This document shows positions 8,454-22,808 of a stretch of DNA of 24,000 bases, piece by piece (position 1 is the stretch's first letter; the number at the start of each line of letters is the position of its first letter). The position numbers were made by a program, and so were the translations under genes. The stretch lies in assembly GCF_046036945.1 (NCBI RefSeq), contig NZ_JBJQOQ010000014.1, forward strand, positions 80,719 through 104,718, read 5' to 3'. The DNA is from Brevibacillus sp. B_LB10_24 (GTDB taxonomy: Bacteria > Bacillota > Bacilli > Brevibacillales > Brevibacillaceae). The notes beneath the pieces are model-generated. The model saw only the letters and a program-made list of their open reading frames with translations. It ran no database searches and had not been told where the DNA came from.

Positions 8454-9209
8454 ATGCCTCAAACAGAACAGATTGCAGTAGTGACAGGCGCCGGGAGCGG
8501 CATGGGACGGGCCTCCAGCCTGAAGCTTTCGGAAATGGGCATGAAGCTGGTGCTGGTGGATTTCAACCGGCAAACAGGGGAAGAGACGCTCGGCATGATC
8601 AAGGAACAGGGCGGCGACGGTATTTTTGTGCAGGCAGATGTAAGCAAGAGCGCCGATGTGCAGCATTATGTGAACAAAGCGGTTGAAACCTACGGCCGGA
8701 TTGACGTTTTCTTCAATAATGCGGGCGTGATCCAAAAGCCGTATCTGCTGTCGGATATCCCTGACGAGGAGTTTGACCGCATCGTATCGGTCAACTTCAA
8801 AGGCGTTTTCTTCGGGTTGAAGTACGTGCTGAAGGTGATGGAAAAACAGGGCTACGGCGTGATCATCAACAACTCGTCCAGCTCCGGACTGCGGGTGGAG
8901 CACAGCTTGGCCGTCTATTCGGCGAGCAAGCACGCTGTGGTTGGACTTACGAAGTCGGCGGCGCTGGAATACGCCGATAAAGGAATCCGCGTGAACGCGA
9001 TTTGTCCTGGCGGTGTCGAGACCAACCTGGTAGCGGGCTTCCAAAAGACGATAGCCGAAACCGGGAATGTGCCGAAGATCGAATCTCCGCGCATCGGACG
9101 CATGGCTGATCCGCAGGAAATCGCCAATGTAGTGGCATTCCTGGCTTCGCCGGGAGCCAGTTACATGACCGGATCGATCGTTCCGATCGACGGCGGTCTT
9201 ACTCTGTAA
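8454..9209 (+). CDS. SDR family NAD(P)-dependent oxidoreductase
   Basis: 251 aa. TGAGSGMGR cofactor motif, NNAG, catalytic YSASK. Starts 6 nt after the MarR stop, suggesting an operon. Confidence 0.92.
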   Translation: MPQTEQIAVVTGAGSGMGRASSLKLSEMGMKLVLVDFNRQTGEETLGMIKEQGGDGIFVQADVSKSADVQHYVNKAVETYGRIDVFFNNAGVIQKPYLLSDIPDEEFDRIVSVNFKGVFFGLKYVLKVMEKQGYGVIINNSSSSGLRVEHSLAVYSASKHAVVGLTKSAALEYADKGIRVNAICPGGVETNLVAGFQKTIAETGNVPKIESPRIGRMADPQEIANVVAFLASPGASYMTGSIVPIDGGLTL

Positions 9210-9235
9210 CAGCGAAACAGCATATTTGCATGTGG

Positions 9236-9270
9236 GAAAAATACCGCCTCTGCTGACAGGGGCGGTTTTT
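9236..9270. terminator. Bidirectional rho-independent terminator between convergent genes
   Basis: Stem ACCGCCTC (9243-9250) / GGGGCGGT (9259-9266). An A-rich run lies upstream (GAAAAATA) and T5 downstream (9266-9270). It abuts the stop of the minus-strand activator gene. Confidence 0.75.
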
Positions 9271-10274
9271 CATGTCCGAATCTCGTCCTCATCGTGGCGG
9301 CAGTACTTGCGGATCAAGCGTGAGGCTTTGGATTGGCTGATTTTTAAATATTCCGCCACTTTCCGCGAGCTTTTGAACCTCTGGTATGACTCGCAAATCA
9401 TTTTCCTCTCTACTTCTGTCATGGCCGAAGCGAGCGAGGGCAGCAGCGTCCGCTCCTGTGGCGTGTGACCGCAGCAGCGAATGGCATCGGGCAAGTCGGG
9501 GACGTCGATCAAGGGATCAGAAGTGACGATCAGCTTTTCCAGCAGGTTTTCCAGTTGGCGGATATTGCCCGGCCAGGGAAACGACAGAAGCAGCTTCAGC
9601 GCTTGGTCGGAGATGCGGTGGAAACTGCCGAACTGCCGGTTGTATTTGTCCAGAAAAAAATGGATCAGCGGCAAAAGGTCGGCCTCCCGCTCGCGCAGCG
9701 GGGGGATTTTGATATCCAACACGTGAAGCCGGTAGTAGAGGTCTTCGCGAAACAGCTTCTTTTGCACCATCTCCTGCAGGTCGCAATTGGTCGCGGTCAC
9801 GATCCGGACATCTGCCTTTCTGGGTTCGCGCCTGCCGAGCGGAATGTATTCGCGGTGCGAAAGGAAGTGGAGCAGCTTTGGCTGCAGGTGCAGCGGCAGT
9901 TCGCCGATTTCATCCAAAAACAGGGTGCCGTGGTTGGCTGCTTCGATCAGGCCGATTTTTCCCTGCTTCAAGGCGCCGGTAAACGCCCCGGGCGAATAGC
10001 CGAACAATTCGGCTTCCAGCAAATTCTCCGGAATCGCCGAGCAGTTAATCGTGAGAAACGGCTGCTTCCGGCGGGAGCTGAAGCGGTGAATGAACTGGGC
10101 CAGGACGCTTTTTCCCGTACCGGTCTCGCCGTGCAGGAGAACGGTTGAGTCCACAGCAGCGGCCTTCCGGCACAGACGCAGCACCTTCTTCATGGCTTCG
10201 CTGTGGACGACAAGGGGCTGGTTTTGGTCTTCCAAGACTTGCGCTGTCGTCGGCAATGCTTTTGAAATATCCAC
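9270..10274 (-). CDS. Sigma-54-dependent transcriptional activator (bEBP) lacking an N-terminal sensory domain
   Basis: Walker A GETGTGKS, sigma-54 contact loop GAFTGA, Walker B LFLDEIGE, C-terminal Fis-type HTH (SRKVAEYLKISQSKASRLIRKY). The AAA+ core begins ~20 aa from the N-terminus. ORF-track TTG 10301 has no RBS; GTG 10274 has GGGGTGA ~7 nt upstream. Confidence 0.9.
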   Translation of the reverse strand: MDISKALPTTAQVLEDQNQPLVVHSEAMKKVLRLCRKAAAVDSTVLLHGETGTGKSVLAQFIHRFSSRRKQPFLTINCSAIPENLLEAELFGYSPGAFTGALKQGKIGLIEAANHGTLFLDEIGELPLHLQPKLLHFLSHREYIPLGRREPRKADVRIVTATNCDLQEMVQKKLFREDLYYRLHVLDIKIPPLREREADLLPLIHFFLDKYNRQFGSFHRISDQALKLLLSFPWPGNIRQLENLLEKLIVTSDPLIDVPDLPDAIRCCGHTPQERTLLPSLASAMTEVERKMICESYQRFKSSRKVAEYLKISQSKASRLIRKYCRHDEDEIRT

Positions 10275-10302
10275 TACGCTCTCACCCCTGTATATCCGCA
10301 AG

Positions 10303-10644
10303 CTATTGGGGAAGGTTTTGGCGGCCCGGGCTCTCCGCCAGGTTGAGCAGGACTACACCTACAATAATGATGGCGATCGCCAGCAGCCTGAGGGGGCTGA
10401 CCGATTCTTTCCAGAGTATGATGCCGATGACTACAGTCAGGGCGGTGCCCACTCCGGACCAAATGGCGTAAGCGGTGCCGAGCGGCAGGTATTTCAACGC
10501 GAGGGACAGGATGTAGAAAGAAGCGGCGTATCCGATGACCACGACCGTGCCGGGAACCCATTTGGTAAACCCCTCGGATAATTTCAATGCGGTGGTTGCG
10601 GTAATCTCCAGGAGTATGGCCGATGCCAAATAGACGAATTTCAT
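10303..10644 (-). CDS. SMR family small multidrug / quaternary-cation efflux transporter (EmrE/Qac subtype)
   Basis: 113 aa from ATG 10644 (RBS AAGGGGGA). Four TM segments, membrane-embedded Glu in TM1 (AILLEITATTALK), KLSEGF and AYAIWSGVG motifs as in EmrE. Confidence 0.9.
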   Translation of the reverse strand: MKFVYLASAILLEITATTALKLSEGFTKWVPGTVVVIGYAASFYILSLALKYLPLGTAYAIWSGVGTALTVVIGIILWKESVSPLRLLAIAIIIVGVVLLNLAESPGRQNLPQ

Positions 10645-11192
10645 CTCGCTTCCCCCTTCGACATGCTGATCAACAAATGCTGTACGCGCTCCCGCAGCTC
10701 GCCGTTCGTCAGCGGAGCCAGCCCAAACATCTCGGCGAACCACAAACCGTCGGCGGCCAGCCGGCAGATGGTCGCTGCTTCAGGGTCAATCCCGTCTCGT
10801 TCCAATTGTTCCTGCCAGCCTGCGTAGTAACGCCGGACAGGCTCCAACAGTTCCGGCTTGTTTACCAGTGCGGCCAGCAAGCCGGCGCTGATCTTCAATT
10901 CCTGCTCGGTACTGCGGAAGGTGGTGCGGACGTAGGCGCGCGCCCACTTCCCTGGGGAGTGGGGCTCCTGGGAGATGTCGTCCTCTATTTGCTGATGGTA
11001 TTCCTTGAACAAGTGATCGATCATACCCTCGATCAAGGCTTCCTTCGAGGGGAAGTGATACAAGAGGCCGCCTTTGCTGATATTCGCTTGCCCGGCAACC
11101 GCATCCAGCGTCAAACGGCCGATCCCCTCGTTTTGGATCAGGGCGTAAGCTGCTTCGAGAATCGTTTCGCGGGTTGTTTTTGTAGCTCCCAC
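10641..11192 (-). CDS. TetR/AcrR family transcriptional regulator
   Basis: GTG start with RBS AAAGGCGGT. N-terminal TetR HTH (TRETILEAAYALIQNEGIGRLTLDAVAGQANISKGGLLYHFPSKEAL). Its stop overlaps the SMR start (ATGA at 10641-10644). Confidence 0.9.
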   Translation of the reverse strand: MGATKTTRETILEAAYALIQNEGIGRLTLDAVAGQANISKGGLLYHFPSKEALIEGMIDHLFKEYHQQIEDDISQEPHSPGKWARAYVRTTFRSTEQELKISAGLLAALVNKPELLEPVRRYYAGWQEQLERDGIDPEAATICRLAADGLWFAEMFGLAPLTNGELRERVQHLLISMSKGEAR

Positions 11193-11231
11193 GCTTCTTA
11201 CCGCCTTTCGTTTCCGGTCTTATTTCTTTTT

Positions 11232-11261
11232 ACTATACCGTCTGGACGGTACAGTTGTCAA
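11232..11261 (-). promoter_or_regulatory. Promoter of the tetR-smr-activator operon with palindromic operator
   Basis: On the minus strand: TTGACA (11261-11256), 18 nt, TATAGT (11237-11232). A perfect 7-2-7 palindrome TACCGTCtgGACGGTA (11236-11251) lies across the -10/spacer. Confidence 0.65.
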
Positions 11262-11275
11262 TTCTTTCCTTTCCC

Positions 11276-11305
11276 CTGAGTGAGCCGTGACTCGCTTGAG
11301 TCAGG
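11276..11305. promoter_or_regulatory. Candidate upstream activating sequence for the sigma-54 activator
   Basis: Three TGA(G/C)T(G/C)A-like heptamers, centred at ~11280 (TGAGTGA), ~11291 (TGACTC, opposite orientation) and ~11300 (TGAGTCA). That is roughly one helical turn apart and ~70-95 bp upstream of the -24 element. T-tracts lie between them and the promoter. Confidence 0.35.
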
Positions 11306-11369
11306 CTGGAATCGCTTTTTTAACCGCTGTTTTTTCGCAAATTAATGAAGAATCAAGGGGTGTTCCCCT

Positions 11370-11385
11370 TGGCATTCCTCTTGCT
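11370..11385 (+). promoter_or_regulatory. Sigma-54 (-24/-12) promoter
   Basis: TGGCAT-tcctc-TTGCT against consensus TGGCAC-N5-TTGCW. It sits 46 nt upstream of the ATG at 11431 and is the only well-spaced match I found on either strand of the window. Confidence 0.8.
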
Positions 11386-11430
11386 TGAAGTGTTGGCGAA
11401 CAGCAATCTTGCGCAAGGGAGGAACAGGAA

Positions 11431-12855
11431 ATGGAACGCATTTTTGTGAACGGGCAATTTGCCGACAGCACAGCGGAAAAAAGCAAGGTGATCGTCAATC
11501 CTGCAACGGAGGAGGAGATTGCCGAAATCCCGCTGTGCGGGGAAAAAGACGTGGAGCAGGCAGTAGCCGCGGCCCGGAAAGCCTTTTTCAGCTGGGGAGC
11601 GACGACACCGGCAGAGCGAAGCGCCCTCCTGCTGAAAATTGCCGATCGGGTGGAGCAGCATCTGGAGAGCCTGGCGCTGATCGAATCGCAGAATGTCGGC
11701 AAACCACTCGAGGTCGCAAGGTTTGACGTGTGTGCCTTTGTCGATAATCTGCGCTTTTTTGCCGGAGCCGCCCGAACGCTGCAGGGCTTGAGCTGTGGCG
11801 AATACATGGAGGGACACACCAGCATGATCCGGCGCGAGCCCGTGGGCGTCGTCGGTTCCATCACGCCATGGAATTACCCGCTGCTGATGGCCGGCTGGAA
11901 GATTGGTCCAGCTCTGGCCGCAGGCAACACAGTGGTGCTCAAACCGTCGGAGTTGACTCCCCTGTCAGCGTTGAAGCTGGCGGAGCTGACGGCAGACCTG
12001 CTCCCGCCGGGCGTGTTGAATGTCGTCACAGGGCTTGGCGAGGAAGCGGGAGCGGCGTTGGCCAGGCATCCCGGCGTGCACATGATCTCGCTCACCGGTA
12101 GCGTCAGGGCGGGCAAGGCGGTTGCCCGGGAAGCGTCCGCCGCCTTGAAAAAAGTGCACCTGGAGTTGGGCGGTAAGGCTCCCGTGGTCATATTTGACGA
12201 TGCCGACCTTGACGAAGCCGTGAACGGGATTCGCCTGGCCGGATTTTCCAACAGCGGACAGGATTGTACGGCGGCCGCCAGAATTTATGTGGAAAAAGGA
12301 TCGTACGAAGCGCTCCTGGACAAACTTGCAGCCGCAGCCCAGAGCATCGTCGTAGGTGATCCGCTGACGGAAGGGACGGAGATGGGGCCGCTGGTCTCGC
12401 AGGAACATCTGGAAAGAGTCGCCGGTTTTGTCGAGCGCGCCCGGAGCAAGCCCCAGGTACAGGTACTTGCCGGAGGGGAGAGGCTAGAGGGCCGCGGATT
12501 TTTCTACAAGCCGACAGTGCTTGCGGGGGTCAGCCAGAGCGATGAGATTATCCGGGAAGAAGTGTTTGGTCCCGTGGTGACCGTCATGCCGTTTGCTTCC
12601 GAGGATGAGGCAATGGAGCTTGCCAACGACTGTCAATATGCGCTGTCCACGTCTGTCTGGACACAGAACACGTCGCGGGCGATGAAATTCGTCAAACAGC
12701 TTCAGTACGGAACCGTCTGGGTCAATACCCACTTCCTGCTGACCAGTGAAATGCCGCATGGCGGTTTCAAAAATTCCGGTTATGGCAAGGATCAATCGAT
12801 CTATGCCGTCGAGGAGTACACCGAGATCAAACACGCCATGATTCGCTTTGCATAA
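11431..12855 (+). CDS. NAD-dependent aldehyde dehydrogenase, gamma-aminobutyraldehyde dehydrogenase (PatD/YdcW)-like
   Basis: 474 aa. RBS GGGAGGA. ALDH motifs ELGGKAP and catalytic GQDCTAA. Long stretches match my recollection of E. coli PatD (EGHTSMIRREPVGVV, PWNYPLLMAGWKIGPALAAGN, VWVNTHF..SEMPHGG.K.SGYGKD). Confidence 0.92.
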   Translation: MERIFVNGQFADSTAEKSKVIVNPATEEEIAEIPLCGEKDVEQAVAAARKAFFSWGATTPAERSALLLKIADRVEQHLESLALIESQNVGKPLEVARFDVCAFVDNLRFFAGAARTLQGLSCGEYMEGHTSMIRREPVGVVGSITPWNYPLLMAGWKIGPALAAGNTVVLKPSELTPLSALKLAELTADLLPPGVLNVVTGLGEEAGAALARHPGVHMISLTGSVRAGKAVAREASAALKKVHLELGGKAPVVIFDDADLDEAVNGIRLAGFSNSGQDCTAAARIYVEKGSYEALLDKLAAAAQSIVVGDPLTEGTEMGPLVSQEHLERVAGFVERARSKPQVQVLAGGERLEGRGFFYKPTVLAGVSQSDEIIREEVFGPVVTVMPFASEDEAMELANDCQYALSTSVWTQNTSRAMKFVKQLQYGTVWVNTHFLLTSEMPHGGFKNSGYGKDQSIYAVEEYTEIKHAMIRFA

Positions 12856-12883
12856 CCATCAGCGAAACGGAGGTTGACTTGTT

Positions 12884-14008
12884 TTGAAGCAGGATTTCGT
12901 TCAGCTGCAGCATCGCTACCATGAAGATGTGGAGCGCTCTTACACACTGCCCTCTTATTTTTACTTCGACCCTGCTGTCCTGGAGGCGGAGCGGAAGGAG
13001 ATTTTCGAAAAAAGTTGGATTTGCGTCGGCCATGAGGAGAAAGTAAGGGAGCCGGGAGATTATTTTACCGTGTCGCTGTTCGACCAGAATATCGTAATCA
13101 TCAGAGGAAAGGATCAGGTCGTGCGGGCTTTTTACAATGTCTGCCCGCATCGCGGCCACGAATTGGTAAGCGGGGAGGGCAACAAGCCGCTGATCGTCTG
13201 CCCGTACCACGCATGGAGCTTTCAGCTTGACGGCCGCTTTCACAACGGCAGGGCTGTCCGCCAAATGAAGCAGTTCGACGAGCAGGAAGCTTGTTTGCGC
13301 CCTGTCCAAGTGGAGCGCTTTGCCCATTTCCTGTTTGTCAATCTCGATCCTGCGGCGAAGCCGCTGCAAGAAATGATTCCGGGAGTGGAAGAAGAAATCC
13401 GGCAGCGCGTACCCGTTCTGGACAAATTGACGCTATCGCACAGAATCTCCTATGAGATCAAAGCCAATTGGAAAAACGTGCTCGACAACTACCTGGAGTG
13501 CCATCACTGTGCCGTTGCCCATCCGCAGTTTGTGGAGATTGTCGATATGGCCAAGTACCGACTGAAGACGTTCGACTACCACATCCTGCAGACCGGTGCA
13601 GGCAAAAAAAGGCTTGGCAGCAACCGGACGCCTGATGATCAGGAAAACGCTGTGGCCATGTATACCTCCTATTGGCTGTGGCCCAACCTGGCGATTGACA
13701 TCATGCCGGGAGAACCCGGGCTGATCGTCATGCATGTACTGCCTGACGGTCCCGAGACAACGGTGCAGCACCTGGAGTTTTACTATTTGCAGAAGGAGCC
13801 GACGCAGGAGGGATGGGCCAATATCGAATATCAGGACAAAGTGCTGAATCCGGAAGATTTTGCCCTGGTGGAAAGCGTGCAGCGGGGGCTGCGTTCCAAG
13901 GGATACGCTGACGGGCGCTACGTCGTCGACCAGGATCGTTCGTCTATCAGCGAGCATGCCGTGCACCACTTTCACGGACTCGTGCTGAAAGCTTTGGGAG
14001 CGCGCTAG
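12884..14008 (+). CDS. Rieske [2Fe-2S] non-heme-iron oxygenase, alpha/oxygenase component (CntA/YeaW/GbcA-like)
   Basis: TTG start 10 nt after GGAGG. Rieske motif CPHRGHEL...CPYHAWSF. Mononuclear iron motif NYLECHHCAVAHP. Segments AFYNVCPHRGH, ANWKNVLDNYLEC and PEDFALVESVQRGLRSKGY resemble carnitine/gamma-butyrobetaine oxygenase YeaW/CntA as I recall it. Confidence 0.9.
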   Translation: MKQDFVQLQHRYHEDVERSYTLPSYFYFDPAVLEAERKEIFEKSWICVGHEEKVREPGDYFTVSLFDQNIVIIRGKDQVVRAFYNVCPHRGHELVSGEGNKPLIVCPYHAWSFQLDGRFHNGRAVRQMKQFDEQEACLRPVQVERFAHFLFVNLDPAAKPLQEMIPGVEEEIRQRVPVLDKLTLSHRISYEIKANWKNVLDNYLECHHCAVAHPQFVEIVDMAKYRLKTFDYHILQTGAGKKRLGSNRTPDDQENAVAMYTSYWLWPNLAIDIMPGEPGLIVMHVLPDGPETTVQHLEFYYLQKEPTQEGWANIEYQDKVLNPEDFALVESVQRGLRSKGYADGRYVVDQDRSSISEHAVHHFHGLVLKALGAR

Positions 14009-14046
14009 GACGCGTTCCCCCACATGCGAATGGAGGGCGACAAACC

Positions 14047-15387
14047 TTGGAGAAGAGAACGGGACTGCAAAGGCAGTTAAAGCTTTGGCATGTATTCGCC
14101 CTGGGTCTGTCACTGATGGTTCCCACCACTGTTTTTGATACCTATGGGATCGCCGCCGGCTCTACCGGCGGCCACGTCCCGACTGCCTATCTGTTCAGCA
14201 TGGCGGCCATTCTGTTCACGGTGCTGAGCTACGCCCACATGGTGAAGGTATTTCCGGGAGCTGGATCGGCATACACGTATGCCCAGCAGACATTTAACTC
14301 CAGTATCGGCTTCCTCGTCGGGTGGGCGGCGCTTTGCGACTACCTGTTTTTGCCGATGCTGTACGCTTTGACCGCAGAAATCTATTTGTCGTCTCTGTTT
14401 CCGGAAGTGCCGAGCTGGTGCTGGATTGTGCTTACCGTGCTGTTTTTCACCCTGGCCAATATCTTCCAGGTAAAGGTTACGGTCTCGTTCAATGCTGTTT
14501 TCGTCGTGTTTCAAGTATTGATCACGGTCGTGTTCATCGCTTTGCTGATTCGGGAGCTGCTGGGAGGCACGGCTGCCGGCTTTTCGCTGCAGCCGTTCTA
14601 TTCCGCCAGTCTGAACTGGTCTGCTGTCCTGGCCGGTTCGGTGATCCTCTCCTACTCCTTTATCGGGTTCGACGCGCTCAGCACGTTGTCGGAAGAAACC
14701 CTGGAACCGAGAAAGACCATACCCCGCGCCATGATCATCCAGACGTTGTTTTTGGGCGCGATGTACACCGCTGTCACCTATTTTATGCAGTCACTTTTTC
14801 CCGATGTATCGATTTTCAACGATCCGGAAGGGGCTTCTCCGGAGATCGCCCAGCGGATCGGCGGAATGCTGTTCGCGTCGGTCTTCGCGGCGATCACCGT
14901 CACAGGCAACATGGTGGGCGGGATTGCCGCCCAGCTGAGCACATCCCGTTTGCTCTATGCGATGGGGCGGGACAACGTCATTCCCAAAAAGCTGTTCGGG
15001 TATATTCATCCCCGTACCGGGGTACCTGTGTTCAACGTCATTCTCGCCGGACTGTTTTCGCTGTCGGCCAGCTTTTTCGACCTGGAAACTGCCATCTCCT
15101 TCTTCAGTTTTGGCGCCTATACGGCCTTCACTTTTGTCAATCTGTCCGTCATCGCCTATTTCATCGTTCAGAAAAAAATGCGTTCCTGGCGTGCGATTCT
15201 CTTTTACCTGGCCGGTCCGATGATCGCCATCAGCTTCATCGCCGTGCTTTGGACCCATATGAACGGGAAAGCGCTGGTGCTTGGCATTATCTGGAATGTA
15301 TGCGGACTGGTGTATCTGCTTTATTTGACCAAGCTGTTCACCAGGCAGCCACCCCGCTTCCAATTTGAAGAGCATATCAATCAATGA
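14047..15387 (+). CDS. APC superfamily permease, PuuP/PlaP-like putrescine/polyamine importer
   Basis: 446 aa, TTG start 9 nt after GGAGGG, ~12 TM segments. Segments LKLWHV, TVFDTYGI, GHVPTAYL, FPGAGSAYTYAQ, IYLSSLFPEVP and SRLLYAMGRDNV match recalled E. coli PuuP. Confidence 0.9.
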   Translation: MEKRTGLQRQLKLWHVFALGLSLMVPTTVFDTYGIAAGSTGGHVPTAYLFSMAAILFTVLSYAHMVKVFPGAGSAYTYAQQTFNSSIGFLVGWAALCDYLFLPMLYALTAEIYLSSLFPEVPSWCWIVLTVLFFTLANIFQVKVTVSFNAVFVVFQVLITVVFIALLIRELLGGTAAGFSLQPFYSASLNWSAVLAGSVILSYSFIGFDALSTLSEETLEPRKTIPRAMIIQTLFLGAMYTAVTYFMQSLFPDVSIFNDPEGASPEIAQRIGGMLFASVFAAITVTGNMVGGIAAQLSTSRLLYAMGRDNVIPKKLFGYIHPRTGVPVFNVILAGLFSLSASFFDLETAISFFSFGAYTAFTFVNLSVIAYFIVQKKMRSWRAILFYLAGPMIAISFIAVLWTHMNGKALVLGIIWNVCGLVYLLYLTKLFTRQPPRFQFEEHINQ

Positions 15388-15469
15388 AGAATTCGAAATT
15401 TAAAAATTATTCCCTTAAATTGCGTGTATAATAGAGACAGAAAACTCGCTTGATGGGGGGATTGTGGGA

Positions 15470-17038
15470 ATGAGTGATTTGAACCGGGCCAGAAGAAATA
15501 CGCTTGGGGATATTTTGCGACGGAGCAGAGCGCGCTATCCGGACAAGACGGCGCTGAATTTTGAAGGAGAGGTCTTGTCCTACCGGCAGTTGGACGATGC
15601 GGTTAACCAGGCGGCGAACGCGATCCTGGCCCAAGGACTGAAAAAAGGGGACCGTGCTGCCGTCCTCTCCCGCAACTCGCTCGATTTTGCCATTCTCAAT
15701 TTCGCGTTGGCCAAGTCTGGTGTGATCATGGTGCCGATCAACTACATGCTCAATGTTGACGACGTGGCGTTTATTCTCAGCCATGCAGATGTAAGCGCTC
15801 TCTTCGTCTCGCCGGAGTTCCAGCCGATCGCCGAGCAAGCCGTCCCCAAATCGGGCTGCACGCTGCGGCTGAAGTCGCTCATTTCCAGACCTTCGGCACA
15901 AATCGGGGAGTGGGTTCCATTTCGCGAGCTGATCAGCGGGGCCGAGCTGGCGGAGCCGGAAGCGGAGCTTTGGGATGACGACGTCGTTCACATCCTGTAT
16001 ACGAGCGGCACCGAGTCCAAGCCAAAAGGCGTCATGCTCACCCATAAAAACGTAATCAGCGAGTATGTCAGTACCATCATCGACGGCGGCATGACGAGTG
16101 ACGATGTGGCGATCCATGCGCTTCCCTTGTTTCACTCTGCCCAGCTGCACTGCTTTTTGGGGCCGTACATCTACCTCGGGGCCAGCGGCATCATCCTGGA
16201 ACAAGCCGCGCCTGCGACGATCCTGGAGGCGATTGAGACGCATCGGGCAACACAGCTGTTCTGTCCGCCGACCGTCTGGATCGCCCTGCTGCGTTCCCCC
16301 GACTTCGACCGGCGCGATCTCTCCTCTCTGCAAAAATGCTACTACGGAGCGGCGATCATGCCCGTCGAGGTGCTGAGGGAATGCAACCTGCGGCTGCCGT
16401 CAGCCCGCTTCTGGAATTTTTACGGGCAGACCGAGGTCGCTCCGCTGGCGACGGTACTCAAACCGGAAGACCAGATCAGAAAAGCGGGCTCGGCGGGAAA
16501 GCCCGGCCTGAATGTGGAGACCAGAATCGTCGATGACAACGGCGACGAGGTGCCCCGCGGCCAGATCGGCGAGATCGTGCACCGCACAAGTCACGCCATG
16601 CTGGGCTACTACCGGGACGAGGAGAAGACGGCAGCGGCTTTTCACGGCGGATGGTTTCACAGCGGGGACTTGGGCATCATGGATGAAGAAGGGTACATCA
16701 CCGTCGTGGATCGCAAGAAAGACCTGATCAAATCAGGCGGGGAAAACGTCGCCAGCCGGGAAGTGGAAGAGTTGATCTATCAGCATCCGAAAGTATCGGA
16801 GGTGGCGGTGATCGGCGTCCCCCATCCCTACTGGATCGAAGCGGTTACCGCCGTAGTGGTGCCCAAATCAGGCGAATTGCTCGGACCGGAAGACATCCTG
16901 CTGTTTTGCAAGGAGCATTTGTCCTCGTTTAAATCTCCCAAGTACGTCGTCATCGCCGACAATCTGCCGCGCAATCCGAGCGGCAAAATTCTGAAACGGG
17001 AGCTTCGCGCGCAGTATCAATCGATTGCCGCAGATTGA
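15470..17038 (+). CDS. AMP-dependent acyl-CoA synthetase/ligase (class I adenylate-forming enzyme)
   Basis: ATG 15470 lies 8 nt after GGGGGGA (the ORF-track ORF starts at GTG 15464). AMP-binding motif YTSGTESKPKGV; also YGQTE, GDLG..DEEGY and the C-terminal PRNPSGKILKRELR. TATAAT at 15427-15432 upstream. I saw no terminator hairpin between the permease and this gene. Confidence 0.92.
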   Translation: MSDLNRARRNTLGDILRRSRARYPDKTALNFEGEVLSYRQLDDAVNQAANAILAQGLKKGDRAAVLSRNSLDFAILNFALAKSGVIMVPINYMLNVDDVAFILSHADVSALFVSPEFQPIAEQAVPKSGCTLRLKSLISRPSAQIGEWVPFRELISGAELAEPEAELWDDDVVHILYTSGTESKPKGVMLTHKNVISEYVSTIIDGGMTSDDVAIHALPLFHSAQLHCFLGPYIYLGASGIILEQAAPATILEAIETHRATQLFCPPTVWIALLRSPDFDRRDLSSLQKCYYGAAIMPVEVLRECNLRLPSARFWNFYGQTEVAPLATVLKPEDQIRKAGSAGKPGLNVETRIVDDNGDEVPRGQIGEIVHRTSHAMLGYYRDEEKTAAAFHGGWFHSGDLGIMDEEGYITVVDRKKDLIKSGGENVASREVEELIYQHPKVSEVAVIGVPHPYWIEAVTAVVVPKSGELLGPEDILLFCKEHLSSFKSPKYVVIADNLPRNPSGKILKRELRAQYQSIAAD

Positions 17039-17168
17039 GTATGAACACGTATCACGGCGGGGGAAGAACAAGACACCAGGTGACAGAAAAACCTCCCGGT
17101 GCAGCGAAACAACGAGGAGTCAGCAAGGAACGCCACAGGAATATGGAAAATATATGGGAGGTAGAGAA

Positions 17169-17663
17169 ATGTCAACTAGCAAGGAAGTTTTGGTTACACA
17201 GATGTTCGCTTGCCATAATCAGGATGGATGGTTTGCTCCGTTGAATTTTGTCTTGCGAGGTGTTACAGAGGAACAGGCTGTCCAAGGAGGGAAAGGTTCT
17301 TCAAATTCCATTTATGGTATCGTTCGTCACCTTATCTTTTGGAATGAACGTTATCTAAAATGTTTTAACGAAGGCGATTTACCACCGCTTGAAATAGTCA
17401 CCAATTCTGAGACGTTTCAGGAGAGCGGGATGTCTGCAAGCTGGGATGAGCTGCAAATGAGATTGGACGACGTCCTTGCCCAATGGGAACAAGCTATCAT
17501 GAACTGCGATGATTCAAAATTGGACAGTCAAACCCACCCGGATCGAGACGTACCATGGTGGACGTTAATAGCCCACATAGCACTCCATAACGCCTATCAC
17601 ATTGGCCAGATCGTCTACATTCGGAAGGAACGAGGTTCGTGGGAAACATGGGATGAAGAATGA
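17169..17663 (+). CDS. DinB family protein
   Basis: ATG 17169 lies 6 nt after GGGAGGT (the ORF-track ORF begins at 17025 without an RBS). 164 aa with DinB-like His-containing helices (VRHLIFWNERY, IAHIALHNAYHIGQIVYIRK). Confidence 0.85.
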   Translation: MSTSKEVLVTQMFACHNQDGWFAPLNFVLRGVTEEQAVQGGKGSSNSIYGIVRHLIFWNERYLKCFNEGDLPPLEIVTNSETFQESGMSASWDELQMRLDDVLAQWEQAIMNCDDSKLDSQTHPDRDVPWWTLIAHIALHNAYHIGQIVYIRKERGSWETWDEE

Positions 17664-17669
17664 GTCTAT

Positions 17670-17702
17670 ACCCCCAGTCAGCAGCTGGGGGTTCATTTTT
17701 TT
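17670..17702 (+). terminator. Rho-independent terminator
   Basis: ACCCCCAG (17670-17677) / CTGGGGGT (17685-17692), then TCATTTTTTT. Confidence 0.8.
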
Positions 17703-17871
17703 GCGGCCCCGCATCGGACCATCTCCCTTGTGTCCAAGCCTACCATCCTTGTCTCTCCAGACAAAAGGCTTTCTATGGCATATTCTCTGGTATGGAGCAA
17801 CTGAAATACCGGCCACTCCGCATAAAAATCGGTCGTGTGGCAGGTAAACGTCAAATCATATATAATATTTC

Positions 17872-17897
17872 TAAGTTAATGAAACTTATCAAACTTA
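17872..17897. promoter_or_regulatory. Palindrome plus extra half-site upstream of the MerR-fusion gene (candidate operator)
   Basis: TAAGTTaatgaAACTTA (17872-17888), then a third AACTTA at 17892-17897. It lies just downstream of a TATAAT at 17861-17866 and ~60 nt upstream of ATG 17953. Confidence 0.3.
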
Positions 17898-17952
17898 CAG
17901 AATCGTGTTGATTTCTATTCATGTGGAAGATATTTAGGGAGGGTAACGCAAA

Positions 17953-18738
17953 ATGAAATTGTTAAATATCTCAGAGGCAGCCAAACTTCTTGGGATTTCA
18001 GCCAGCACGCTGCGCAGACTGGAACATGACGGCGTTGTGGAAGGATACGGATTGAGTGTGATTTATACACCGGGGGGGCAGCGCAGGTACATTTTAGACG
18101 AAATACAGCATCTGTATTCACAGCAGGGCTTCTCCGGACAAATCGGATTTGGCGGCAAACCGGCTGTGCTTGTTCGCGACATGACTTTGGCTTTTACGGA
18201 TCCGAATTCTAAATTATCCATCCAGTTAAACGGCCAGATTGAAGCGGTAACACAACTGGTTAAAACTGCTCTTGCCAATCATTTTCCGGTTGTTTTCAGC
18301 AAGACCATCTACGACTCGGCAGATAAATTTTCACAGCTTTGGGGACAAAAATTTCCTTCCATACAGCTGCTTGACCGTAATACGGCATGGGTGAAAATTC
18401 ATCCTACATTAGATGAATTTACGTATGACATGGTTAACGCAACCACTTACATTAACGATTTTTACTGCTCACCGCTGGATGAGTTTCTGCAGCAAAGAGA
18501 AATCGATACGGTCATATTGGCTGGAACCACAACGAGCGGCAGCATCCGGGCAAATGCCGTGGAAGCCCTGCAGCGCGGGTATCGTGTCATCATTCCAGAA
18601 GAAGCTGTCGGCGACCGTTCCGAATCGATTCAAAGAGCGACCCTTCTCGACTTGCATGCGCGTTACGCTGATGTCATGACGTTGGAAAAAGTGTTGAAAT
18701 GCGTGAACGAAGCGGGATCACTAAGAAAATCGAAGTAA
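17953..18738 (+). CDS. MerR-type HTH domain fused to an isochorismatase-like (CSHase/NicF/PncA-branch) domain with Cys-to-Ser at the nucleophile position
   Basis: 261 aa, RBS AGGGAGGG. N-terminus ISEAAKLLGISASTLRRLEHDG...GGQRRY is a MerR/excisionase-type HTH. The C-terminal ~190 aa carry the isochorismatase-family strands PAVLVRDMTLAFTDP and VILAGTTTSGSIRANAVEA. The usual TxxC(V/I) nucleophile reads TSGSI. Confidence 0.85.
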   Translation: MKLLNISEAAKLLGISASTLRRLEHDGVVEGYGLSVIYTPGGQRRYILDEIQHLYSQQGFSGQIGFGGKPAVLVRDMTLAFTDPNSKLSIQLNGQIEAVTQLVKTALANHFPVVFSKTIYDSADKFSQLWGQKFPSIQLLDRNTAWVKIHPTLDEFTYDMVNATTYINDFYCSPLDEFLQQREIDTVILAGTTTSGSIRANAVEALQRGYRVIIPEEAVGDRSESIQRATLLDLHARYADVMTLEKVLKCVNEAGSLRKSK

Positions 18739-19083
18739 AGGTGTTTCACATCTTCCCCTGAAAGTGTGCCAAGCTGCCTGGGCTGCCGCCAAGACAAGGA
18801 ATACCTTGGTCAATGCTACACCTGCATTGGTCAAACTCGGCGCATAGGCGGCTTTCTTGGAGGGGCGGGCATGTAGAGAACCAAATTGGTTTCGTGCTGC
18901 TGCTCCCGTGAGAGCGTGCTTCGGTTTCTCCCCTTGTTTTTCCCCCTTTTTTCCTACCCAGAGAATTCTCTCTCAGCCCAAACTTGAAGGACAAATCTCC
19001 TTGCATCTGAATGCGATTCCCCGAACAGGTAACGCGATCTTCGTTGTTGCCGCGGCCAATGTTATGCTGACTTTTTCTATGAT

Positions 19084-19097
19084 CCCCCCCCCCCCCC
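19084..19097. repeat. Homopolymeric C14 (G14 on the minus strand) tract
   Basis: Counted directly: 14 consecutive C residues, 37 nt upstream of the -35 box at 19135. Confidence 0.95.
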
Positions 19098-19134
19098 GTT
19101 TTTAATAGGATTTCAAAATTTAGAATAGATTGCG

Positions 19135-19163
19135 TTGACAGACAATTCACAATAGATTATAAT
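19135..19163 (+). promoter_or_regulatory. Perfect consensus sigma-A promoter (TTGACA-17-TATAAT)
   Basis: TTGACA at 19135-19140, a 17-nt spacer, TATAAT at 19158-19163. Flanked or overlapped by 8-bp direct repeats AATAGATT (19124-19131 and 19151-19158). The nearest downstream gene start is ATG 19432. Confidence 0.7.
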
Positions 19164-19192
19164 CAGGAACGAAAAGATTAGTAAATTTGATC

Positions 19193-19366
19193 ATGTTTGG
19201 TAACTTTCATTTCAACAAAATGTTTCAAATGATTGGAAAAGTTATGAAAAACCTCCTCAAATACCCGATTATACATCCGCTAAATATGGACATTTTTGGA
19301 ATCGATAGTCGGGATTTGCAGCCAAATGTTGAAACAGGGGTGAGCGAATACTGCCAAATGGACTAG
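19193..19366 (+). CDS. Hypothetical 57-codon ORF inside the long leader (doubtful)
   Basis: Hand translation: MFGNFHFNKMFQMIGKVMKNLLKYPIIHPLNMDIFGIDSRDLQPNVETGVSEYCQMD. A stop-free run in AT-rich sequence, but no recognisable RBS. It is below the ORF-track length cut-off. Confidence 0.15.
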   Translation: MFGNFHFNKMFQMIGKVMKNLLKYPIIHPLNMDIFGIDSRDLQPNVETGVSEYCQMD

Positions 19367-19431
19367 AACGAGCAATTTCAATGGTTGGTTCCTTTTTTTA
19401 GCTTTATAAAAAAAACGGGGGGAGATAAGCG

Positions 19432-20670: not shown

Positions 20671-20724
20671 TAGGTTTGGTAATTTTCGGTAAATTTTTTA
20701 AAGTTCGAAATAGGGGGGATCAGC

Positions 20725-21543
20725 TTGAACGATAAGGAGCTTTTCGGACAAATGTTAGTCAAAGGCCTTAACGCGGATATCCATTTACTTACCAAAGGCG
20801 ACAGCAACGGGGTACCGGTTCTTTTTCTTCCGGGCATTACAAGCTACAGTATGTCATTTTCGGAAATTCTAAAGCGGATGCCTGATCACTTCTACTGTTT
20901 GTCCATGGATATCCGCGGGCGCGGGAAATCCAGCTGGCCCAAACAGGGATACCGCATGCAGGATTACGTTGAGGATTTGCTCAATGTGGTGAATGCGTTA
21001 ACGAGAAATCAGACGGCACCATTCCTTGTCGGCCATTCCATGGGGGCGAGAATTGCAGCCGGTTTTGGCAGCGCATACTCATCTCTCATTTCCGGTATGG
21101 TGCTCATCGACCCCCCGGTTACCGGTCCGGGTCATCGACAAGTTTACCCCAATTCCCTCTCCATGTTTCTGGAACAAAAAGCCGCGGCAGACGAAGAGGA
21201 ATGGGACAAATTTCGCGCCTTTTATCCGCACTTTACGGAAGAACAACGGAAGATACGAATTACCGAATACCTGAACGTAAGCAAGGAAGCGATCATCGAA
21301 TCGTACAACAACTTTATCAAAGAACCTTTTCAGGTCCATGTAAAATTGACAACTTGTCCCATGCTGCTGTTAGCCGCTGAACTTGGAGATACAATTCGTC
21401 CTGATGAACTTGCCGAGTTGAAGTCTCTCAATTCCCGTTTGCAGGCCGTTGTCGTGAACGGCGTTGGTCACATGGTATACAAGGAGGCACCTCAGGTAAC
21501 AGCGGAATCTATCATCTCTTTCATCAGCGATCATCTGAAATAA
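20725..21543 (+). CDS. Alpha/beta hydrolase fold protein
   Basis: 272 aa, TTG start after GGGGGGA. Nucleophile elbow GHSMGA, C-terminal GVGHMV His motif. 54-nt gap to the hydroxylase with no terminator. Confidence 0.9.
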   Translation: MNDKELFGQMLVKGLNADIHLLTKGDSNGVPVLFLPGITSYSMSFSEILKRMPDHFYCLSMDIRGRGKSSWPKQGYRMQDYVEDLLNVVNALTRNQTAPFLVGHSMGARIAAGFGSAYSSLISGMVLIDPPVTGPGHRQVYPNSLSMFLEQKAAADEEEWDKFRAFYPHFTEEQRKIRITEYLNVSKEAIIESYNNFIKEPFQVHVKLTTCPMLLLAAELGDTIRPDELAELKSLNSRLQAVVVNGVGHMVYKEAPQVTAESIISFISDHLK

Positions 21544-21621
21544 CGGTATGGTACGAAAAGCGGGTGAACGTATTTTTGTGGTGTCATATAGAAAAAGTCA
21601 GTCATAAAGGGGTTGGGATGA

Positions 21622-22797: not shown

Positions 22798-22808
22798 GGA
22801 GGGTTACG

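What the first reader, a model, noticed from the sequence alone, without database searches (positions are those of the whole stretch)
11370..15387. Sigma-54-driven operon pairing a CntA/YeaW-like Rieske oxygenase with a PatD-like aminoaldehyde dehydrogenase and a PuuP-like importer: candidate undescribed oxidative C-N cleavage route for a polyamine or quaternary amine
Seen: a near-consensus -24/-12 promoter (TGGCAT-N5-TTGCT) precedes three tightly spaced genes with gaps of 28 and 38 nt. They encode an ALDH closest by eye to gamma-aminobutyraldehyde dehydrogenase PatD, a Rieske/mononuclear-iron oxygenase closest by eye to CntA/YeaW, and an APC permease closest by eye to the putrescine importers PuuP/PlaP. 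CntA/YeaW split a C-N bond to release an amine plus an aldehyde. Established knowledge: known putrescine routes make 4-aminobutanal with an aminotransferase (PatA) or a flavin oxidase, or go through gamma-glutamylation (Puu pathway). CntA-type enzymes are known for carnitine and gamma-butyrobetaine. Inference: here a Rieske oxygenase occupies the slot between a polyamine-type importer and an aminoaldehyde dehydrogenase. This suggests import, then Rieske-catalysed hydroxylation next to N with spontaneous C-N scission to an (amino)aldehyde, then oxidation to the acid. I do not know of that combination as a described pathway. The acyl-CoA synthetase at 15470 follows without a visible terminator and could extend the pathway.
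Basis: partly seen in the sequence, partly recalled or inferred. Interest (0 to 1): 0.8.

Follow-up and report, generated by a model that had tools for sequence, protein, structure and literature searches.

The report
Rieske amine-cleaving operon under sigma-54
A Brevibacillus gene cluster pairs a putrescine-type importer, a relative of the carnitine-splitting iron enzyme CntA whose binding pocket has been rebuilt, and an amino-aldehyde dehydrogenase, so it probably breaks down a positively charged amine by a route not yet described, but the substrate is still unknown.

Summary
TGGCATtcctcTTGCT (11370-11385) lies 45 nt before three genes separated by 28 and 38 nt. They encode an ALDH 53% identical to E. 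coli PatD, a Rieske oxygenase 42% identical to CntA (model TM 0.82-0.88), and a permease 47% identical to PuuP.

It encodes a sigma-54 activator with no sensor domain. Its sigma-A promoter carries a palindrome, TACCGTC-N2-GACGGTA.

Seven related Bacillales loci keep TetR, Rieske and permease together. None of 80 more distant CntA-like loci has this permease or TetR. The sigma-54 motif recurs before the first operon gene in five of the six related loci that encode an activator.

The oxygenase keeps the group Va hallmarks (Y203, E205, C206, C209). Its substrate pocket differs from CntA: F258Y, N270D, Y295L, Y315Q, F319L. These changes are invariant in an 11-cluster clade separate from CntA/YeaW.

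An ALDH is present in 4 of 8 loci, as two non-orthologous amino-aldehyde types. Dedicated redox partners elsewhere are a TrxR-like flavoprotein and a Fer-like ferredoxin, not CntB.

My best reading is import, oxidative C-N cleavage of a cationic (di)amine to an amino-aldehyde, then oxidation to the acid. This is inferred and the substrate is untested. It is a new variant of a known kind.

The parts
9270..10301 (-). Sigma-54 activator (bEBP) with no sensor domain: AAA+ domain plus C-terminal HTH. The longest ORF is 343 aa. The probable start is GTG at 10274 (334 aa), behind a GGGGTGA ribosome-binding site.
   Evidence: Pfam Sigma54_activat E 7e-67, AAA_lid_14 and HTH_50. Walker A is at residue 58 and GAFTGA at 105. 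PAS-bearing orthologues have Walker A at 165-201. PDB matches start at query residue 28-34. The start codon was read.
10303..10644 (-). Its ATG overlaps the tetR stop codon (ATGA).
   Evidence: Translation. Pfam Multi_Drug_Res E 7e-30. The best NCBIfam hits are EbrB and Qac models, all below cut-off. It has E13 and A16 rather than Trp, so it is not Gdx-type (read from the sequence; the rule is from my own knowledge). It is 69-70% identical to the gene in the same position in L084 and L088.
10641..11192 (-). TetR-family repressor (183 aa, TetR_N + TetR_C_28). It is the one regulator present in every related locus.
   Evidence: Pfam hits. The best solved relative is the cationic-dye-binding repressor CgmR (2yve/2zoz, E 2e-12). 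Orthologues at 46-71% identity are found in L081-L090.
11232..11261 (-). Sigma-A promoter TTGACA-N18-TATAGT of the tetR-smr-bEBP operon. The palindrome TACCGTCtgGACGGTA (11236-11251) lies in its spacer and is the presumed TetR operator.
   Evidence: The promoter scan scores 11 of 12. The inverted repeat is I1. The same promoter-plus-palindrome is found before tetR in every related locus. In L082 it lies 7 kb from the sigma-54 promoter, so it belongs to tetR and is not an activator site.
11277..11304 (.). Candidate activator binding site (UAS): TGAGTgagccgTGACTCgcttGAGTCAg. It lies about 70-90 nt upstream of the -24 element.
   Evidence: The palindrome TGACTC-N4-GAGTCA is I3. GAGTC/GACTC half-sites are conserved at the same place in L084 and L088. 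Binding was not tested.
11370..11385 (+). Sigma-54 (-24/-12) promoter TGGCAT-N5-TTGCT.
   Evidence: Seen. Conserved counterparts are at L082 6316, L084 4977, L085 623, L088 7789 and L090 901. L089 has the variant TGGAAT-N5-TTGCA.
11431..12855 (+). NAD(P)-dependent omega-amino-aldehyde dehydrogenase, PatD/YdcW subfamily (474 aa).
   Evidence: NF010000 scores 717 bits, above the 615 cut-off. The TIGR03374 equivalog scores 628, below its 909 cut-off. PDB 6c43 and 1wnb match. Identity to E. coli PatD is 53%. The catalytic motifs LELGGK and GQDCTA are visible.
12884..14008 (+). Group Va Rieske / mononuclear-iron oxygenase (374 aa). It is a CntA paralogue with an altered, acidic substrate pocket: Y260, D272, L297, Q317, L321 in its own numbering.
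14047..15387 (+). APC-family permease (446 aa), PuuP/PlaP-like importer.
   Evidence: It is 47% identical to E. coli PuuP. Orthologues at 58-73% identity sit next to the Rieske gene in 8 of 8 loci.
15464..17663 (+). Acyl-CoA synthetase (15464-17038) and a DinB-family protein (about 17163-17663). They may be read through from the operon but are not part of the conserved module.
   Evidence: PRK08316 scores 793 bits and DinB_2 is detected. There is no terminator until 17670-17692. The AMP-binding genes in L083, L084 and L088 are unrelated (26-32% identity).
9243..9266 (.). Terminator-like hairpin at the end of the tetR-smr-bEBP operon, shared with the convergent SDR gene.
   Evidence: sites on both strands.

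Best explanation
This is a two-tier regulated catabolic module for a small cationic amine. The most likely substrate is a putrescine-type diamine or polyamine, or an N-alkylated or guanidino relative.

**Regulation (inferred from anatomy)**
1. TetR sits on the palindrome inside the sigma-A promoter of tetR-smr-bEBP.
2. When its ligand binds, the operon is expressed.
3. The activator made from it has no sensor domain, so it is presumably constitutively active. It binds the GAGTC/GACTC sites and opens the sigma-54 promoter at 11370.

**Pathway (inferred from homology and pocket)**
1. The PuuP-like permease imports the amine.
2. The CntA-like Rieske oxygenase holds one cationic nitrogen on Tyr203 next to the iron. 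The distal positive or polar group sits on Asp272, Gln317 and Tyr260.
3. The enzyme hydroxylates the carbon next to the nitrogen. The carbinolamine collapses to a free amine (or ammonia) plus an omega-amino-aldehyde.
4. The PatD-like dehydrogenase oxidises that aldehyde to the omega-amino acid, for example 4-aminobutanal to GABA.

**Electron supply and efflux**
- Electrons probably come from a TrxR-type ferredoxin-NADP reductase and a Fer-type ferredoxin. These are encoded in the operon in L090 (and the reductase in L082) but not in this window. Here the housekeeping pair would have to serve.
- The SMR pump may shed excess cation or a product amine.

**Shown and not shown:** gene content, homologies, pocket residues, motif conservation and co-occurrence are shown. 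The substrate, the reaction and every regulatory interaction are not shown.
For: - **Fold and hallmarks:** the oxygenase has the CntA fold and the group Va hallmarks Y203, E205, C206, C209, H208, H213 and D325 (definitions from PMC7948474).
- **Pocket:** the residues that contact the carnitine carboxylate and hydroxyl end are replaced, notably N270D. The replacements are invariant in clusters P0001-P0011 and absent from the other 109 relatives listed. The clade is monophyletic and separate from CntA/YeaW.
- **Permease linkage:** a permease 47% identical to PuuP is adjacent in 8 of 8 loci and in 0 of 80 distant CntA-like loci.
- **ALDH recruitment:** ALDHs were recruited twice from two amino-aldehyde families. 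This window has the PatD type. L082, L089 and L090 have a BADH-like type (TIGR01804, 609 bits). The two types are 37-39% identical. Both families accept 4-aminobutanal (established knowledge).
- **Redox partners:** a flavoprotein reductase plus ferredoxin lie inside the operon in L090, and the reductase in L082.
- **Regulation:** the sigma-54 motif, the activator and tetR are conserved as a set. Where there is no activator (L081), tetR directly precedes the oxygenase and there is no sigma-54 motif.
Against: - No experiment exists for any member of this clade.
- Every characterised group Va enzyme uses a quaternary ammonium substrate, and CntA was inactive on non-quaternary analogues (PMC7948474). 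A primary or secondary amine substrate would be a first.
- The ALDH is missing in half the loci.
- No reductase or ferredoxin is encoded in this window.
- E. coli PatD/YdcW also oxidises medium-chain aldehydes (my own knowledge).
- The CgmR-like TetR and the Qac-type SMR point just as well to hydrophobic quaternary ammonium compounds.
- The F258-to-Y260 mapping falls next to a low-confidence loop (pLDDT 67-68 for residues 241-260).
Confidence: 0.45

Rival explanations
1. The oxygenase acts like choline monooxygenase, with no C-N cleavage. It oxidises the alcohol carbon of an imported amino-alcohol or quaternary ammonium alcohol (choline, homocholine, 4-aminobutanol) to the amino-aldehyde. The ALDH then makes the betaine or amino acid.
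For: Choline monooxygenase is also a group Va enzyme with Tyr at position 203 (PMC7948474). The ALDHs in L082, L089 and L090 are close to betaine-aldehyde dehydrogenase (TIGR01804, 609 bits against a 668.6 cut-off). This reading explains amino-aldehyde dehydrogenases without needing a doubly charged substrate. Asp272 and Gln317 could hydrogen-bond a hydroxyl group.
Against: The importer is PuuP-like rather than a BCCT or Opu choline system. A sigma-54 catabolic promoter and the lack of any osmoprotection context argue against betaine synthesis. No choline monooxygenase sequence was available, so the pockets could not be compared.
Confidence: 0.17
2. The module detoxifies or uses synthetic or natural hydrophobic quaternary ammonium compounds, like OxyBAC acting on benzalkonium or alkyltrimethylammonium. 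The oxygenase removes the alkyl chain as a fatty aldehyde. The ALDH and the acyl-CoA synthetase feed it to beta-oxidation. TetR and SMR give tolerance.
For: OxyBAC belongs to group Va (PMC7948474; PMC7225539). The TetR's nearest solved relative binds cationic dyes. A Qac-type SMR shares the activator's operon in three loci. A 'fatty acyl-CoA synthetase' follows with no terminator. PatD/YdcW was first described as a medium-chain ALDH (my own knowledge).
Against: The one partner that is always conserved is a putrescine-type importer, which a membrane-active surfactant would not need (8 of 8 loci). The clade-specific pocket residues are polar or acidic (D, Q, Y), not a hydrophobic channel. SMR is present in only 3 of 8 loci, and the synthetase only in this one.
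Confidence: 0.13
3. It is simply a Gram-positive carnitine / gamma-butyrobetaine monooxygenase, a true CntA orthologue that yields trimethylamine plus malic or succinic semialdehyde.
For: CntA is the best solved match, at 42% identity and TM 0.82-0.88. The importer + oxygenase + ALDH design matches the Acinetobacter carnitine operon (PMC11353897).
Against: Five of six carnitine-contacting pocket residues differ, including an Asp where the carboxylate end binds. The clade is separate from CntA/YeaW. There is no CntB/YeaX reductase, no BCCT transporter and no malate dehydrogenase. The ALDH is of PatD type, not succinate- or malate-semialdehyde type.
Confidence: 0.05
4. The oxygenase is a non-cleaving C-hydroxylase of a diamine, like the putrescine 2-hydroxylase reported by Li et al. 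2016. It would serve modification rather than catabolism.
For: A Rieske-type putrescine hydroxylase exists. The 'Rieske-type' description is from my own memory; only the citation was seen, in PMC7857480. That precedent shows Rieske enzymes can bind putrescine.
Against: ALDH genes lie in the same operon in 4 loci, together with an importer and a catabolic sigma-54 promoter. There are no siderophore or polyamine-biosynthesis neighbours. I could not obtain that enzyme's sequence to compare.
Confidence: 0.07

Closest known systems
Carnitine monooxygenase CntA/CntB (A. baumannii) and YeaW/YeaX (E. coli), with the Acinetobacter carnitine operon
   Same: It has the same fold (TM 0.82-0.88) at 42% and 39% identity. 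It shares the Rieske CXH/CXXH motifs, the His-His-Asp iron site, the bridging Glu205, the cation-pi Tyr203 and the Cys206/Cys209 pair. The operon logic is also the same: importer, C-N-cleaving oxygenase, aldehyde dehydrogenase.
   Different: The pocket residues for the acid end of carnitine are replaced (F258Y, N270D, Y295L, Y315Q, F319L), and the clade is separate. The importer is a PuuP-type APC permease, not a BCCT. The ALDH is of amino-aldehyde type, not a malic semialdehyde dehydrogenase. There is no CntB-type FMN/2Fe-2S reductase; orthologous loci carry a TrxR-like flavoprotein plus a Fer-like ferredoxin. Regulation is by TetR + bEBP + sigma-54, not by LysR.
E. coli putrescine utilisation: PuuP/PlaP import and the PatA-PatD (aminotransferase) route
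   Same: The importer (47% identity) and the 4-aminobutanal dehydrogenase (53% identity) are homologous to the first and last steps.
   Different: The step between them would be an O2- and NAD(P)H-consuming Rieske oxygenase. Known routes use a transaminase, a flavin or copper amine oxidase, or gamma-glutamylation. This step is inferred, not shown.
Other group Va Rieske oxygenases: plant choline monooxygenase and OxyBAC of Pseudomonas sp. BIOMIG1
   Same: An aromatic residue at position 203 and a cationic head group as the recognition handle. OxyBAC also cleaves C-N to give an amine plus an aldehyde.
   Different: No sequence of either was available for comparison. The context here (putrescine-type importer, polar acidic pocket) fits neither choline-to-betaine synthesis nor surfactant dealkylation well.
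Sensor-less sigma-54 activators (PspF, HrpR/HrpS)
   Same: The activator is only an AAA+ domain with GAFTGA plus an HTH. Its activity must therefore be set from outside the protein.
   Different: Control here appears to act on how much activator is made. A ligand-sensing TetR repressor is encoded just upstream in the same operon. There is no PspA- or HrpV-type anti-activator. Sister loci carry a PAS-bearing version of the same activator.

Membership tests
CntA/YeaW carnitine monooxygenase (oxygenase subunit) | Rieske CXH...CXXH cluster ligands, the His208/His213/Asp323 iron triad and the bridging Glu205 | tested here: met
   C87, H89, C106, H109, E205, H208, H213 and D325 are invariant in alignments with CntA and YeaW.
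CntA/YeaW carnitine monooxygenase (oxygenase subunit) | Carnitine / gamma-butyrobetaine contact residues Y225, F258, N270, Y295, Y315, F319 (PMC7948474) | tested here: not met
   Only Y225 is kept. The others are Y, D, L, Q and L, and this set is invariant in P0001-P0011.
CntA/YeaW carnitine monooxygenase (oxygenase subunit) | Falls inside the CntA/YeaW clade | tested here: not met
   In the NJ tree of 122 sequences, CntA and YeaW pair with each other. The window protein sits in a separate monophyletic Bacillales clade. NJ only, with no bootstrap.
CntA/YeaW carnitine monooxygenase (oxygenase subunit) | Adjacent CntB/YeaX reductase and BCCT carnitine transporter | tested here: not met
   tblastn with YeaX and YeaV finds nothing in the window or in L081-L091.
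Group Va quaternary-ammonium Rieske oxygenases (Quareshy et al. 2021) | Aromatic residue at position 203 (cation-pi) and the Cys206/Cys209 pair beside the iron | tested here: met
   Y203, C206 and C209 are present.
Group Va quaternary-ammonium Rieske oxygenases (Quareshy et al. 2021) | The substrate carries a quaternary ammonium group | not testable with these tools
   This needs an enzyme assay.
Sigma-54-dependent promoter | GG at -24 and GC at -12 with consensus TGGCAC-N5-TTGCW, placed before the first gene | tested here: met
   There is an exact match at 11370-11385, 45 nt before the ATG. On its own the match occurs by chance in 14 of 100 shuffles.
Sigma-54-dependent promoter | A cognate activator with GAFTGA nearby, and the motif conserved in orthologous loci | tested here: met
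   The activator lies at 9270-10301. The motif is conserved in L082, L084, L085, L088 and L090 and absent from L081, which has no activator.
Sigma-54-dependent promoter | An upstream activator-binding site | tested here: inconclusive
   Conserved GAGTC/GACTC dyads lie at 11277-11304 and at matching places in L084 and L088. There are no binding data.
Sigma-54-dependent promoter | Transcription depends on sigma-54 (SigL) in vivo | not testable with these tools
   The sigL gene is not in the window, and this needs a mutant.
PatD/YdcW gamma-aminobutyraldehyde dehydrogenase | Scores above the curated family cut-off | tested here: inconclusive
   The subfamily model NF010000 is met (717 bits against 615). 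The equivalog TIGR03374 is not met (628 against 909). Identity to E. coli PatD is 53%.
PuuP/PlaP putrescine importers | Full-length homology to E. coli PuuP | tested here: met
   47% identity over 435 of 446 residues, E 9e-149.
PuuP/PlaP putrescine importers | Transports putrescine | not testable with these tools
   This needs an uptake assay. The Bacillales genomes listed carry several paralogues at about 50-55% identity.
TetR-type repressor with operator in its own promoter | HTH plus ligand domain, and a palindrome overlapping the -35/-10 of the regulated promoter | tested here: met
   TetR_N and TetR_C_28 are present. TACCGTC-N2-GACGGTA lies between TTGACA and TATAGT, and the arrangement is conserved in all loci. 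Binding was not tested.

The most novel reading that the evidence does not exclude
The clade is a Rieske monooxygenase that oxidatively deaminates or dealkylates putrescine-type polyamines (putrescine, cadaverine, agmatine, spermidine or N-methylated forms) to 4-aminobutanal. That would be an additional, oxygenase-based route of bacterial polyamine catabolism. It would also be the first group Va enzyme whose specificity is set by an acidic pocket for a second positive charge. The route would be switched on by a TetR -> sensor-less bEBP -> sigma-54 relay.
Probability: 0.3. Interest if true: 0.8.

Novelty: new variant of a known kind. Interest (0 to 1): 0.6.

Why it matters
Known routes of putrescine and polyamine breakdown use transaminases, flavin or copper oxidases, spermidine dehydrogenase or gamma-glutamylation. 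A Rieske oxygenase step would add a new enzyme class to that list. It would also extend the CntA-type C-N cleavage chemistry beyond quaternary ammonium nutrients.

The pocket signature gives a concrete, testable specificity switch: Asn270 to Asp, with Tyr295 to Leu, Tyr315 to Gln and Phe319 to Leu. This matters for annotation too. 'cntA-like' genes are counted as trimethylamine producers in microbiome surveys, and this clade should not be counted that way without evidence.

The regulatory layout is a compact two-tier circuit. A ligand-sensing TetR controls synthesis of a sigma-54 activator that has no sensor domain. I did not find this layout described.

Tried and rejected
- **Doubting the PuuP call:** NCBIfam listed only weak generic amino-acid permease models, so I doubted it.
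- **Agmatine to guanidine:** I considered this because an SMR pump is in the locus. The SMR has Ala16 rather than Trp, and its best hits are Qac/EbrB models, so it is not a guanidinium exporter type. That argument was dropped.
- **Acyl-CoA synthetase as a pathway member:** rejected as a conserved member. The AMP-binding genes near other loci are only 26-32% identical and sit in different positions.
- **Palindrome as the activator site:** rejected. In L082 it sits at the tetR promoter, 7 kb from the sigma-54 promoter.
- **Genome-collection scan with the oxygenase:** Those loci served as a negative control set.
- **Neighbourhood look-ups:** P0003, P0006, P0014 and P0136 were not on record.
- **Putrescine 2-hydroxylase paper:** Li et al. 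2016 could not be read or searched, and a plasmid tblastn did not surface that enzyme.
- **Rfam:** no riboswitch or other RNA family was found in 9000-18000.
- **Literature:** searches for a Rieske enzyme in polyamine catabolism found nothing relevant.

Full report
**Source and gene map**

The oxygenase protein is identical to one from Brevibacillus sp. B_LB10_24 (P0001). On the + strand the ORFs are an ALDH (11431-12855), a Rieske oxygenase (12884-14008) and an APC permease (14047-15387). The gaps are 28 and 38 nt, and GGAGG ribosome-binding sites precede the two TTG starts. TGGCATTCCTCTTGCT lies at 11370-11385.

**Identity of the three proteins**

- The ALDH passes the NCBIfam aminobutyraldehyde-dehydrogenase subfamily cut-off (717 bits against 615) but not the equivalog cut-off (628 against 909). 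Its best solved relatives are PatD/YdcW (E 7e-171 and 3e-169), and it is 53% identical to E. coli PatD.
- The oxygenase matches CntA over its full length (E 4e-94). Identity is 42% to CntA and 39% to YeaW. An AlphaFold model (pLDDT 88, pTM 0.87) superposes on the CntA structures at TM 0.82-0.88 and rmsd 2.4-2.7 Å. Stachydrine demethylase and the aromatic dioxygenases reach only about 0.75.
- NCBIfam gave only weak generic hits for the permease. BLASTP against E. coli PuuP gives 47% identity over 435 residues, E 9e-149.

On the minus strand, diverging from the sigma-54 promoter, lies tetR (10641-11192). An SMR efflux gene (10303-10644) follows, with its ATG overlapping the tetR stop. A sigma-54 activator (9270-10301) comes next, and then a terminator-like hairpin.

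The activator is only an AAA+ domain with GAFTGA plus an HTH. Walker A is at residue 58 of the longest ORF, and PDB matches begin at residue 28-34. It has no sensor domain.

The operon has a near-perfect sigma-A promoter, TTGACA-N18-TATAGT, at 11261-11232. The palindrome TACCGTCtgGACGGTA sits in its spacer.

**Comparative evidence**

Gene neighbourhoods of seven orthologous loci were recovered: L081 Neobacillus, L082 Bacillus sp. PK3_68, L083 B. massiliigorillae, L084 from a MAG labelled Clostridia, L088 Brevibacillus fluminis, L089 Pseudalkalibacillus decolorationis and L090 (assembly GCA_007676345.1). L085 is a short second contig carrying the same L084 sequence. A sister locus, L091, was also recovered.

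- TetR (46-71% identity), the oxygenase (59-73%) and the permease (58-73%) are together in all eight loci, counting the window.
- None of 80 more distant CntA-like loci (46% identity or less) has this permease or this TetR. Only two have a YeaX-like reductase.
- A sigma-54 activator is present in 7 of 8 loci. It is short in the window, L082, L084 and L088. It carries a PAS domain in L083, L089 and L090.
- The exact sigma-54 motif recurs before the first operon gene in L082, L084, L085, L088 and L090, at 38-46 nt in four and 81 nt in L090. That first gene is either the ALDH or the oxygenase.
- L089 has the variant TGGAAT-N5-TTGCA. L083 has a decayed motif plus a sigma-A promoter carrying the palindrome. 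L081, which has no activator, has tetR directly ahead of the oxygenase behind the same promoter and palindrome.
- In L082 the palindrome is 7 kb from the sigma-54 promoter, so it belongs to the tetR promoter.
- Conserved GAGTC/GACTC dyads at 11277-11304 are the likely activator sites.

An exact sigma-54 consensus is not rare by chance alone (14 of 100 shuffles). The conservation pattern is what makes the promoter credible.

**The oxygenase pocket**

I used the residue roles published for CntA (PMC7948474; PMC10952381). The window protein keeps all of the following:
- the Rieske ligands;
- the His-His-Asp triad;
- the bridging Glu205;
- the cation-pi Tyr203;
- the Cys206/Cys209 pair.

It therefore belongs to group Va.

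Of the six residues that hold the rest of carnitine, only Tyr225 remains. F258 becomes Y, N270 becomes D, Y295 becomes L, Y315 becomes Q and F319 becomes L. This 'YYDLQL' set is invariant in the 11 clusters P0001-P0011 (54-100% identity) and is found in none of the other 109 relatives listed. Most of those carry 'YFNF[I/V]L'.

The clade is monophyletic in a neighbour-joining tree, with Bacillus sp. OxB-1 as sister and CntA/YeaW elsewhere.

An Asp where CntA meets the substrate's acid end argues against carnitine or gamma-butyrobetaine. It argues for a distal positive or hydrogen-bond-donating group. Putrescine-type diamines are about the same length as gamma-butyrobetaine. That last step is my inference.

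One caveat applies. The loop before Y260 is modelled with low confidence.

**The aldehyde dehydrogenases**

An ALDH lies in the operon in 4 of 8 loci. In L082, L089 and L090 it is a 496-residue enzyme close to betaine-aldehyde dehydrogenase (TIGR01804, 609 bits). These three are 76-82% identical to each other and only 37-39% identical to the PatD-type enzyme here.

Two different amino-aldehyde dehydrogenase families have thus been recruited to the same oxygenase. That is indirect evidence that the product is an aldehyde carrying a nitrogen. 4-Aminobutanal is a substrate common to both families (established knowledge).

**Electron supply**

CntA needs CntB, and none is present here. L090 encodes a TrxR-like flavoprotein and a 98-residue ferredoxin after the permease. 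L082 encodes the flavoprotein. From memory, the ferredoxin closely resembles B. subtilis Fer. The system is thus probably three-component. In this window it would have to borrow housekeeping partners.

**Downstream genes**

No terminator separates the permease from the acyl-CoA synthetase and the DinB gene, so read-through is possible. Neither gene is conserved with the module.

**Interpretation**

The best-supported model has four steps:
1. TetR releases tetR-smr-bEBP when it meets its ligand.
2. The sensor-less activator then fires the sigma-54 promoter.
3. The amine is imported and cleaved next to a nitrogen by the Rieske enzyme.
4. The resulting amino-aldehyde is oxidised to the acid.

I put this at about 0.45. 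The rivals are as follows:
- choline-monooxygenase-like oxidation of an amino-alcohol (0.17);
- dealkylation of hydrophobic quaternary ammonium compounds, as by OxyBAC (0.13), which the CgmR-like TetR and the Qac-type SMR would suit;
- a non-cleaving diamine hydroxylase (0.07);
- true carnitine oxygenase (0.05).

**Comparison with what is known**

The general plan of importer, CntA-type cleavage and ALDH is already known from the Acinetobacter carnitine operon (PMC11353897). Four things are new here:
- the pocket;
- the putrescine-type importer;
- the amino-aldehyde dehydrogenases;
- the redox partners and the regulatory relay.

Searches of the held literature found no Rieske enzyme assigned to polyamine catabolism. 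The one Rieske enzyme known to act on putrescine is a 2-hydroxylase. I know of it only from memory and from a citation.

I rate the finding a new variant of a known kind, with interest 0.6. It is a well-supported and rare clade: 11 clusters in 5.8 billion proteins. It comes with a clear, testable specificity hypothesis. No experimental evidence for the substrate exists.

Noticed in passing
window 10303-10644 (-): An unlisted 113-aa SMR (Qac/EbrB-like) efflux gene lies between tetR and the sigma-54 activator. Its start overlaps the tetR stop. The same arrangement is found in L084 and L088.
   Followed up: yes
window 11354-11371: A perfect 7-bp hairpin, CAAGGGG-tgtt-CCCCTTG, ends inside the -24 element of the sigma-54 promoter. 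It is not conserved in L084 or L088, and I have no explanation for it.
   Followed up: partly
window 17953-23684: A separate downstream cluster holds a MerR-isochorismatase fusion, an FAD monooxygenase (3-hydroxybenzoate 6-hydroxylase-like, 318 bits against a 459 cut-off), an alpha/beta hydrolase, and an ABC binding protein with a LivH-type permease. From memory, the enzyme set recalls NicC/NicD/NicF of pyridine-ring degradation.
   Followed up: no
L090 5143-6499; L082 10574-11587: Orthologous operons carry their own TrxR-like flavoprotein (72% identical between the two loci). L090 also has a 98-aa Fer-like ferredoxin. This points to a three-component Rieske system unlike the two-component CntAB.
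   Followed up: partly
L083 10628-12115, L089 391-1767, L090 6488-7825 versus window 9270-10301: The same activator occurs with an N-terminal PAS region (445-495 aa) in three loci and without it (311-343 aa) in four. The sensor domain seems to have been lost while tetR linkage and the sigma-54 promoter were kept.
   Followed up: partly
L001-L080 (for example L006 9143-9856, L024 9311-9889, L055 9122-9886): About 20 of the 80 distant CntA-like loci (Proteobacteria, Actinomycetota) have a short-chain dehydrogenase gene immediately beside the oxygenase. This is a different and apparently uncharacterised pairing.
   Followed up: no
L043 8001-12249 (Denitrobaculum MAG): A distant CntA-like gene (42% identity) is followed by an SDR and then by an ALDH 57% identical to E. 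coli PatD. This is a second, independent oxygenase-PatD association.
   Followed up: no
P0136 (549 aa): A permease 57% identical to the window's carries an arginase/agmatinase-family domain (PF00491) in the same predicted protein. This could hint at guanidino-amine transport in the family or could be a gene-calling fusion. Its locus could not be retrieved.
   Followed up: partly
L091 57-8131 (Bacillus sp. OxB-1): The sister-clade oxygenase (50% identity, pocket YYGFFL) keeps the TetR but has no permease. It is flanked by transposases. A flavin amine oxidase, a cupin, an EamA transporter and an ALDH lie just upstream.
   Followed up: no
L084 and L088, genes flanking the module: The MAG labelled 'Clostridia bacterium' (L084) shares gene order with Brevibacillus fluminis (L088) well beyond the module: an MCP-signal gene (L088 also has a MerR and an EAL gene beside it), AMP-binding gene, two-component pair, SPL and ferritin. 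The MAG is probably a Brevibacillus relative.
   Followed up: no
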